DNA from: a virus
Lineage: Duplodnaviria; Heunggongvirae; Uroviricota; Caudoviricetes
Direction: 5' to 3' (one strand)
IMG/VR virus record: IMGVR_UViG_3300029070_000029
DNA length: 9,560 nucleotides
Shown here one piece after another: positions 7,690 through 8,438 of this stretch. The notes beneath the pieces were generated by a model. That model had not been told where the DNA came from and made no database searches. It was given only the letters and a program-made list of their open reading frames with translations. Every line of letters begins with the position of its first letter. Position 1 is the first letter of the stretch. A program made the position numbers and the translations under genes.

Positions 7690-8171
7690 AAATTATATCA
7701 AGTACGAACAAACTTAGTGACAAAAGACTACGAAAAATATAAAACAATTTTAGTATTAAGTAGAGAGAAATTTCGTTCTGCTAGGACGCAGCAATAGGTT
7801 CATGAGATTCTCTGATACTTGTTACCTTAGTAAGCCTTAAATTTTTAAAAATTCTTTTACGTCCACTCCTCGCTCATAACAGGCATTAACTACATTTATC
7901 TTCATTGGCTATGCAAGTCGTAATAAAAGGTGGGACAAAACTGAGACACATAAGCTCTCACAAAGGTCTGCAAGGCCTCACATGTATTGAGATGTTAATA
8001 AAATGTAGACTTGTAATTTTGATATAAATGGTAGATAAAACCTTTCCCCAAAATAAAAACGAACGTCAATGAAATCAAATGGTTGAATAAAGTTGATTTT
8101 GGCTAATAAAAAAACAATAAAATAATTTTTATTATTAAATATCAATGACTTAAACTTAATGTTTTTATATA

Positions 8172-8336
8172 CTGCTGCGCCATATGGGCTGGACTGAAGC
8201 CGCAGACCTGATTGTTAAAGGTATGGAAGGCGCAATCAACGCCAAGACCGTAACCTATGACTTCGAACGTCTGATGGAAGGCGCTAAATTGCTGAAATGT
8301 AGCGAGTTTGGTGATGCGATCATCAAGAACATGTAA
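8172..8336 (+). pseudogene. icdC: Detached 3' end of icd (isocitrate dehydrogenase), 54 codons plus stop, marking the prophage/host att junction
   Basis: Translates to [54 protein letters not shown], which matches the C-terminus of E. coli Icd as I recall it. There is no start codon or upstream icd sequence: an in-frame TAA lies 5 codons upstream in AT-rich DNA. In K-12 the equivalent fragment lies between prophage e14 and iraM. Confidence 0.85.
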
Positions 8337-8359
8337 TCTCTACATGTGTTAAATAATGA

Positions 8360-8391
8360 AACGGGCGTATAACACGCCCGTTGTTTTATTT
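8360..8391 (+). terminator. Rho-independent terminator of icd
   Basis: 9-bp stem aacgggcgt (8360-8368) / acgcccgtt (8374-8382) with a 5-nt loop, followed by gTTTTaTTTaT. It begins 24 nt after the icd stop codon. Confidence 0.75.
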
Positions 8392-8438
8392 ATGTGGATA
8401 TTATTAATAGCATGTCGAGCATATTTATATGAAGCCCA

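What the first reader, a model, noticed from the sequence alone, without database searches (positions are those of the whole stretch)
8150..8395. Detached icd 3' end defines the prophage-host junction at 8171/8172
Exactly 54 codons plus stop of the Icd C-terminus appear with no upstream icd sequence, preceded by AT-rich DNA with an in-frame stop 5 codons upstream, and followed by the icd terminator and iraM. This is the signature of e14-type integration into icd, where the phage supplies a replacement 3' end and the original end is displaced to the far side of the prophage. Everything left of 8172 should therefore be phage-borne, including sitABCD.
Basis: partly seen in the sequence, partly recalled or inferred. 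Interest (0 to 1): 0.5.

Follow-up and report, generated by a model that had tools for sequence, protein, structure and literature searches.

The report
Phage-21-type prophage right end in icd
The detached tail of the isocitrate dehydrogenase gene is real and marks the right-hand junction (attR) of a phage-21-like lambdoid prophage that carries the sitABCD metal transporter, a long-known and very common arrangement in E. coli.

Summary

- **The fragment:** window 8173-8336 is the last 164 nt of icd. It is followed by the icd terminator (8360-8382) and by iraM. It is preceded by 28% G+C DNA with an in-frame TAA at 8157-8159.
- **Empty sites:** genomes without the insertion have an intact icd running straight into iraM, 100% identical to window 8173-9560. 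Host DNA therefore starts at 8173.
- **The phage side:** phage 1W matches window 3410-8389 colinearly at 99.4%. The classical phage 21 matches over sitCBA and over 7892-8389. Both carry sitABCD, then a 280-nt arm, then an icd-like 3' end with terminator, then int and xis. The window is thus attR (phage arm, core, host end).
- **The shared block:** phage and host share 217 nt (8173-8389).
- **A complete relative:** E. coli A3 has intact icd, int, xis and lambda-like genes, then sitDCBA, then the icd fragment. The two icd ends differ at 10 of 217 positions.

Refinements:
- The arm is phage-21-type, not e14.
- Base 8172 belongs to the phage.
- The duplication includes the terminator.

"PAI-icd" islands carrying Sit are already catalogued. 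The only mildly new item is that iraM and ymgK lie between two copies of the icd terminator, and that many strains lack this stretch.

The parts
32..2416 (+). Prophage side tail-fibre gene (794-aa ORF as listed)
   Evidence: Pfam phage_tail_N, E = 1e-66. This module varies between related prophages.
2416..3715 (+). Three small tail-fibre-associated ORFs: 2416-2697, 2707-3411 (Peptidase_S74 chaperone domain) and 3422-3715
   Evidence: Pfam hit for the middle ORF. The same three ORFs follow tail-fibre genes in prophages at other loci.
3807..7256 (-). sitDCBA operon: sitD 3807-4664, sitC 4661-5518, sitB 5515-6342, sitA 6342-7256. It is cargo of the prophage b-region.
   Evidence: Pfam ABC-3 twice, ABC_tran and ZnuA. 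99.4% identical to sitCBA of phage 21 and to sitDCBA of phage 1W.
7257..7891 (.). Spacer between sitA and the attachment arm (34.8% G+C). It should hold the sit promoter region, but that was not tested. It is phage DNA.
   Evidence: Colinear with phage 1W. It is replaced by other cargo in phage 21 and in strains L003 and L005.
7892..8172 (+). P arm of the phage-21-type attachment site, i.e. the phage side of attR
   Evidence: 92-98% identical to the attP regions of phage 21, 1W, 4A7 and others, contiguous with their icd-like block. Found in 2311 of 5426 complete E. coli genomes. No similarity to the e14 arm.
8042..8053 (+). Candidate arm-type integrase-binding site, CTTTCCCCAAAA
   Evidence: The only match in the window to YYTTCCCCAAAA, the consensus annotated for the phage 21 attP subsites. 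0.27 matches expected by chance. Suggestive only.
8173..8389 (+). 217-nt block shared by attB and attP. Here it is the host copy (B'): the displaced icd 3' end (8173-8336, stop at 8334-8336) plus the icd terminator. The crossover lies somewhere near its left end.
   Evidence: 0 of 217 differences from the intact icd of empty-site strain L006. 10 differences from phage 1W and 11 from phage 21. In K-12 the two e14 junctions share ATGCTGCGCCA and diverge at the next base.
8360..8382 (+). icd intrinsic terminator hairpin (readable on both strands), followed by GTTTTATTT
   Evidence: Terminator scan: 9 pairs, 6 of them G-C, then a T run. Conserved after icd in Escherichia and Citrobacter.
8439..8762 (-). 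iraM, host side, outside the prophage
   Evidence: 93% identical to K-12 IraM. Adjacent to intact icd in empty-site genomes.
9207..9257 (+). Second, diverged copy of the icd terminator region. With 8342-8389 it brackets the iraM-ymgK stretch.
   Evidence: 86% identity over 43-51 nt. Scored as terminator-like. The bracketed stretch is absent in strain DA33135 and in about 1000 other genomes.
9305..9560 (-). ymgL (9305-9412) and the 3' end of ycgX (9468-9560), host genes
   Evidence: tblastn with the K-12 proteins.

Best explanation
The window spans attR, the right junction of a lambdoid prophage of the phage 21 type that integrated by tyrosine-integrase site-specific recombination into the 3' part of icd, at Icd codon 363.

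**How it works**
- The phage attachment site has this order: a 280-nt P arm, the core, a 217-nt copy of the icd 3' end with its terminator, the P' arm sites, then int and xis.
- Recombination at the core joins the host icd body to the phage-borne 3' end. That junction is attL, and icd stays functional.
[quoted passage not shown] That junction is attR, and it is what the window shows.

**What belongs to what**
- Everything in the window left of 8173 is prophage: tail-fibre genes, the sitDCBA cargo operon, a spacer and the P arm.
- 8173 onwards is host: icd end, terminator, iraM, ymgL, ycgX.

**Shown versus inferred**
- Shown here: the boundaries, the identity of the fragment to empty-site icd ends, and the colinearity with phage genomes that carry sitABCD and the icd-like block.
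- Inferred from relatives and from the literature: that the source genome has an intact hybrid icd with int and xis roughly 30-50 kb to the left, and that the crossover lies within the first 10 or so bases of the block.
For: **Host side**
- Empty-site genomes L006 and L009 are 100% and 99.9% identical to window 8173-9560, with intact icd contiguous to iraM.
- The 217-nt block in the window has 0 differences from the empty-site host end, against 10-11 differences from the phage copies. This is as expected for the B' side of attR.

**Phage side**
- Phage 1W is colinear with window 3410-8389 at 99.4%.
- Phage 21 matches 4893-7393 at 99.4% and 7892-8389 at 92.6%.
- The phage 21 and 1W records show the order sitABCD, arm, icd-like pseudogene, terminator, P' subsites, integrase, excisionase.

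**Complete relative**
- E. coli A3 has icd, int (a pseudogene), xis, exo/bet/gam, repressor, O/P, Q, lysis gene, J, tail fibre, sitDCBA, icd fragment, iraM.
- Its two junctions are 29.4 kb apart, and the two blocks differ at 10 of 217 positions.

**Literature**
- Phage 21 and e14 use the same site within icd, with different specificities (PMC3530522; Wang et al. 1997, cited in PMC7192596).
- e14 leaves a 163-bp pseudo-icd (PMC6379469).
- PAI-icd islands carrying the Sit system are listed for many ExPEC strains (PMC7545054).
Against: - The source genome was not identified. No complete E. coli genome matches the whole window; the best is 84% coverage at 97% identity. The intact icd, the second 3' copy and the integrase of this particular strain are therefore unverified.
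- The prophage may be degraded, as it is in A3.
- The exact crossover point cannot be read from the sequence, because attP and attB are identical over the first 15 or more bases of the block.
- Only one arm-type site match was found in the P arm, and its chance expectation of 0.27 is not negligible.
Confidence: 0.93

Rival explanations
1. The element is e14 itself or an e14-type element. e14 uses the same icd core but has its own integrase and its own arms.
For: - The target site is the same and the same 165-nt fragment is displaced. K-12 icdC aligns with the window from 8170 onward at 93.5%.
- e14-type junctions occur in Shigella flexneri and Citrobacter.
Against: - The 280 nt left of the core show no similarity to the e14 arm next to mcrA in K-12.
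- The same 280 nt match phage 21-type attP regions at 92-98%.
- The integrases of phage 21 and e14 are only about 60% identical.
- sitABCD is found in phage 21 and 1W, not in e14.
Confidence: 0.03
2. The AT-rich DNA joined to an icd end is an assembly chimera, or the window is a free phage attP rather than an integrated junction.
For: The P arm plus icd-like block is also contiguous in phage genomes. The left 8389 bases alone could not distinguish attP from attR.
Against: - Right of 8389 the window continues into iraM, ymgL and ycgX, which are host genes. Phages continue into the P' sites and int.
- At least 80% of the arm is present in 1462 finished genomes, next to an icd end in the examples listed.
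- The block is identical to host alleles and differs from the phage alleles.
Confidence: 0.01
3. The fragment is not the strain's original icd end. It is itself a phage-derived end left by an earlier lysogeny, or the window is an inner junction of a tandem array of icd-integrated elements.
For: - Host and phage blocks differ by only 4-12 of 217 positions, and alleles are shuffled among strains.
- Up to 4 copies of the 164-nt segment occur per genome.
- Tandem arrays at icd are mentioned in PMC7192596.
- A second terminator copy at 9207-9257 hints at older events.
Against: - The right flank is the standard chromosomal iraM-ymgL-ycgX. It is 100% identical, block included, to an empty-site strain.
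- Within this lineage the block therefore behaves as the resident host allele.
Confidence: 0.03

Closest known systems
Phage 21 attachment system (attP/attB in icd) and close relatives such as Escherichia phages 1W, 4A7 and Lambda_4C10
   Same: - The P arm is 92-98% identical.
- The core position is the same.
- There is an icd-like 3' end with terminator next to int and xis.
- sitABCD sits in the b-region just upstream of the attachment site.
   Different: - The window is the integrated attR form, with the host copy of the block.
- The tail-fibre module at 1-3409 differs from that of 1W.
- The 0.5-kb spacer of phage 21, which holds an extra 252-aa ORF, is absent here, as it is in 1W.
e14 cryptic prophage of E. 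coli K-12 (icd/icdC)
   Same: - The attB core within icd is the same, and the same 165-nt fragment (icdC) is displaced next to iraM.
- The principle is the same: the element supplies a replacement 3' end and terminator.
   Different: - The arms are unrelated and the integrase is only about 60% identical.
- The cargo differs (lit, mcrA, pin) and there is no sit operon.
- e14's replacement end is much more diverged: 36 of 217 positions differ from the window block.
PAI-icd (PAI-CFT073-icd, PAI-536-icd and others) of extraintestinal pathogenic E. coli
   Same: These are islands of 12-61 kb inserted at icd that carry the Sit system, often together with Iss (PMC7545054). The window shows the right end of such an island.
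   Different: None in kind. Only the strain-specific tail-fibre module and the allele details differ.

Membership tests
attR of an icd-integrated lambdoid prophage (phage 21 / e14 attB site) | A detached icd 3' segment that begins at the core around Icd codon 363 ((A)TGCTGCGCCA) | tested here: met
   Homology to intact icd starts at 8173 in alignments with K-12, A3 and the empty-site strains.
attR of an icd-integrated lambdoid prophage (phage 21 / e14 attB site) | Related genomes with an unoccupied site, in which intact icd is continuous with the same right flank | tested here: met
   L004, L006, L008, L009 and L010 have icd directly followed by iraM. L006 is 100% identical to window 8173-9560.
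attR of an icd-integrated lambdoid prophage (phage 21 / e14 attB site) | The same genome holds an intact icd with a second, diverged 3' end next to an integrase (attL) | not testable with these tools
   The source genome was not found. The feature is met in the closest complete relative, A3: icd, int, xis, with 10 of 217 differences between the two blocks.
Phage 21-type element specifically | The left arm is homologous to the phage 21 attP P arm and contiguous with the icd-like block in phage genomes | tested here: met
   Window 7892-8389 matches phage 21 (M61865, OL657228) at 92.4-92.6% and 1W, 4A7 and 4C10 at 98%.
Phage 21-type element specifically | Arm-type integrase-binding dodecamers (YYTTCCCCAAAA) in the arm | tested here: inconclusive
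   One exact match at 8042-8053, with 0.27 expected by chance. No binding data.
e14 element | The left arm is homologous to the right end of e14 (downstream of mcrA) | tested here: not met
   K-12 similarity begins only at window 8170. The arm columns are unalignable.
PAI-icd / Sit island | sitABCD lies inside the element bounded by icd and the displaced icd fragment | tested here: met
   sitDCBA at 3807-7256 lies 916 nt left of the junction. The layout is the same in A3, DA33135, phage 21 and 1W, and the island is catalogued in PMC7545054.

The most novel reading that the evidence does not exclude
The 867-nt iraM-ymgK stretch just right of the junction is bracketed by two copies of the icd terminator region (8342-8389 and 9207-9257).

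- About 1000-1500 of 5426 complete E. coli genomes lack the stretch. They have a single terminator joined directly to ymgL.
- IraM homologues are carried by Stx2 phages.

The most novel reading that is not excluded is this. iraM is the last remnant of a much older icd-integrated element, copy 1 of the terminator being the end that element supplied and copy 2 the ancestral terminator. The 'host' flank of today's attR would then itself be fossil phage cargo, and the PhoP-controlled RpoS stabiliser IraM would have entered E. coli through the icd hot spot.
Probability: 0.25. Interest if true: 0.3.

Novelty: already known. Interest (0 to 1): 0.1.

Why it matters
It matters little as a discovery. 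The use of icd as an attachment site by e14 and phage 21, with a phage-supplied replacement 3' end, dates from 1989-1997. Sit-carrying PAI-icd islands are catalogued.

The result is still useful for annotation:
- The island boundary is fixed at 8172/8173.
- The 50-aa ORF at 8184-8336 is a displaced gene end, not a gene.
- sitABCD in this strain is lysogenic-conversion cargo of a phage type whose free, viable members carry the same operon.

Tried and rejected
**Finding the source genome**
- Exact-protein look-ups gave no result. IraM is too widespread. The 234-aa tail-fibre ORF sits in prophages at other loci.
- No complete E. coli genome covers the whole window.

**Other negative searches**
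- Rfam found no RNA family in the window.
- I looked for icd coding remnants upstream of the second terminator copy. The local alignment score was below the mean of shuffled sequences.

**Looking for an ancestral, unoccupied icd downstream region**
- I used species representatives for this.
- All informative hits carried either a phage-21-type or an e14-type arm after icd, so the ancestry of the iraM stretch stayed unresolved.

**Literature**
- The primary paper of Wang et al. 1997 (PMC179457) is not held. It is cited only through PMC7192596, and otherwise from my own knowledge.

**Explanations considered and rejected**
- Assembly artefact.
- Free attP.
- e14 proper.

Full report
**1. The observation**

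Frame and protein match:
- Reading 8172-8336 in frame gives 54 codons and a stop.
- The peptide matches the C-terminal end of the Pfam Iso_dh profile (E = 4e-6, 26.7 bits against a 27-bit gathering score).
- It matches K-12 Icd residues 362-416 (tblastn E = 3e-29). No other part of Icd is encoded anywhere in the window.

Surroundings:
- An in-frame TAA lies at 8157-8159.
- The 280 nt upstream have 27.8% G+C, against 48.2% in the fragment.
- A hairpin with a T run at 8360-8382 is scored as terminator-like.
- iraM lies at 8439-8762 on the minus strand, followed by ymgL and the end of ycgX.

The description is therefore accurate. The one correction is that the first codon is CTG where icd has ATG. 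Nucleotide homology with intact icd begins at T8173, and C8172 belongs to the left-hand DNA.

**2. It is an insertion junction**

- A look-up of the window's IraM returned several genomes in which an intact 416-aa Icd gene lies directly next to iraM (L004, L006, L008, L009, L010).
- L006 is 100% identical to window 8173-9560, and L009 is 99.9% identical.
- The similarity stops exactly at 8173. Upstream of that point these genomes continue with the body of icd.

**3. What is inserted**

- The 280 nt left of the junction (7892-8172) recur in 2311 of 5426 complete E. coli genomes; in the full-coverage examples listed they abut an icd end or fragment.
- Against the phage collection, window 7892-8389 matches as one colinear piece. 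Phage 21 (M61865, OL657228) matches at 92.4-92.6%. Phages 1W, 3W, 4A7 and Lambda_4C10 match at 98%.
- The phage 21 record has this order: sitC, sitB, sitA, small ORFs, an "ICDH-like" 165-nt pseudogene, a terminator, three attP subsites (consensus YYTTCCCCAAAA), tyrosine integrase, excisionase. Phage 1W has the same order with sitDCBA.
- Window 3410-8389 is 99.4% identical to 1W over 4981 nt. Window 4893-7393 is 99.4% identical to phage 21.
- Everything from the small ORFs after the tail fibre through sitDCBA to 8172 is therefore the b-region and P arm of a phage-21-type genome.
- Phage and host share 8173-8389 (217 nt), i.e. the icd end plus its terminator.
- Right of 8389 the phages continue into the P' sites and int, whereas the window continues into host iraM. 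The window is therefore attR, not attP.
- Within the 217-nt block the window has 0 differences from the empty-site host allele. It has 10 differences from 1W and 11 from phage 21. This is what the B' side of attR should look like.

**4. The other end, seen in a relative**

- In E. coli A3 (96.9% identical across the junction) the intact icd is followed at once by an integrase (a pseudogene there) and an excisionase.
- Then come exo, bet, gam, repressor and replication genes, Q, a lysis gene, J, tail fibre, sitDCBA, the icd fragment, iraM.
- The two 217-nt blocks lie 29,394 nt apart and differ at 10 positions. The protein ends are identical apart from the hybrid first codon.
- For the window's own genome they could not be checked, because the source was not found.

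**5. Mechanism**

Shown here:
- The boundaries at 8172/8173 and 8389/8390.
- The host identity of the block.
- The phage identity of the left side.

Taken from the literature:
- Phage 21 and e14 use the same site within the isocitrate dehydrogenase gene, with different integration and excision specificities (PMC3530522; Wang et al. 1997, J Bacteriol 179:5705, listed in PMC7192596).
- e14 integration separates a 163-bp 3' piece of icd and provides the replacement end (PMC6379469, citing Hill et al. 1989).
- icd has unusually long direct-repeat blocks of up to 250 bp (PMC7192596).

From my own recollection of Wang et al. 1997, which I could not re-read: phage 21 needs a long attP because it includes about 209 bp homologous to the icd 3' end, so that icd stays expressed in lysogens.

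Inferred:
- The strand exchange lies near the left end of the block. In K-12 the two e14 junctions share only ATGCTGCGCCA before they diverge.
- In the window itself the crossover cannot be located, since attP and attB are identical over at least the first 15 bases.
- One exact match to the arm-site consensus lies at 8042-8053 (0.27 expected by chance).

**6. Which family**

- The target and the principle are those of e14, but the element is not e14. K-12's e14 arm next to icdC is unalignable with 7892-8172.
- The two integrases are about 60% identical.
- e14 has no sit operon.
- The element is a phage-21-type prophage. At the level of island nomenclature it is a "PAI-icd" carrying the Sit system, listed for 536, CFT073, UTI89, RS218, S88, APEC O1, LF82, CE10, ED1a and others (PMC7545054).

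**7. Novelty**

None for the finding itself: it is already known. It is a correct and useful annotation call of low interest.

**8. Noticed on the way**

The iraM stretch:
- The icd terminator region occurs twice, at 8342-8389 and at 9207-9257 (86% identity). There is no detectable icd coding remnant before the second copy.
- The 867 nt between the start points of the two copies hold iraM and ymgK.
- Strain DA33135 has a prophage end 99.3% identical to the window. It has the icd fragment, a single terminator and then ymgL directly.
- The iraM stretch is found in 3937 of 5426 genomes. The contiguous terminator-ymgL junction is found in 1036 genomes, at 92-100% identity.
- IraM homologues of 62.6% identity sit in 46 phage records, mostly Stx2 phages.
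- PMC4045071 places iraM "on the e14 prophage". The empty-site genomes show that it lies outside both e14 and the phage-21-type element.
- Whether the stretch is a fossil of an older icd-integrated element or is simply lost by recombination between the repeats remains open. All species representatives retrieved had occupied icd sites.

A mosaic Icd:
- A MAG contig labelled Sutterella carries a mosaic Icd. Residues 1-280 are 55-82% identical to K-12 and residues 281-416 are close to 100% identical. It is followed by a phage-21 Int and Xis.
- This is either a recombinant or a chimeric assembly.

Noticed in passing
window 8342-8389 and 9207-9257 (bracketing iraM 8439-8762 and ymgK): The icd terminator region is present twice, at 86% identity. 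The 867-nt iraM-ymgK stretch between the copies is missing in E. coli DA33135 and in roughly 1000-1500 of 5426 complete genomes, which have one terminator joined to ymgL. It may be a fossil of an older icd-integrated element, or a deletion between the repeats.
   Followed up: partly
window 8439-8762 (-): IraM homologues (62.6% aa identity, full length) are encoded in 46 phage records, mostly Stx2-converting phages. A published statement that iraM is 'on e14' (PMC4045071) does not fit the empty-site genomes, where iraM abuts intact icd.
   Followed up: partly
L025-L038 (species representatives carrying the icd terminator hairpin): Every informative representative had something integrated after icd. 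E. albertii and Escherichia sp. MOD1-EC7003 had phage-21-type P' sites or an int remnant. Citrobacter braakii, Citrobacter sp. Cu233, E. whittamii and Escherichia sp. E1V33 had e14-type 'GTTATCAAAA' repeats. The icd site appears to be a hot spot across genera.
   Followed up: partly
L031:1719-2969 (-), contig labelled uncultured Sutterella sp. UMGS1525: A mosaic Icd. Residues 1-280 are only 55-82% identical to E. coli Icd and residues 281-416 are about 100% identical. It is followed by phage-21 Int (98.9%) and Xis (100%). The E. coli-like part extends well beyond the 54-codon att block, so this is a recombinant or a chimeric MAG assembly.
   Followed up: no
window 1-3409: The tail-fibre module (794-aa fibre, then 93-aa and 234-aa ORFs) is not the one found in phage 1W or in strain A3. 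Its exact 234-aa protein occurs in lambdoid prophages at unrelated chromosomal sites. This points to modular exchange of host-range genes next to a conserved sit-attP module.
   Followed up: partly
window 7257-7891 versus L012:2365-4000, L003, L005: The stretch between sitA and the P arm is a variable cargo slot. It is 635 nt here and in phage 1W. Phage 21 and strain L005 have an extra 252-aa ORF there, and strain L003 has acetyltransferase and HTH genes.
   Followed up: no
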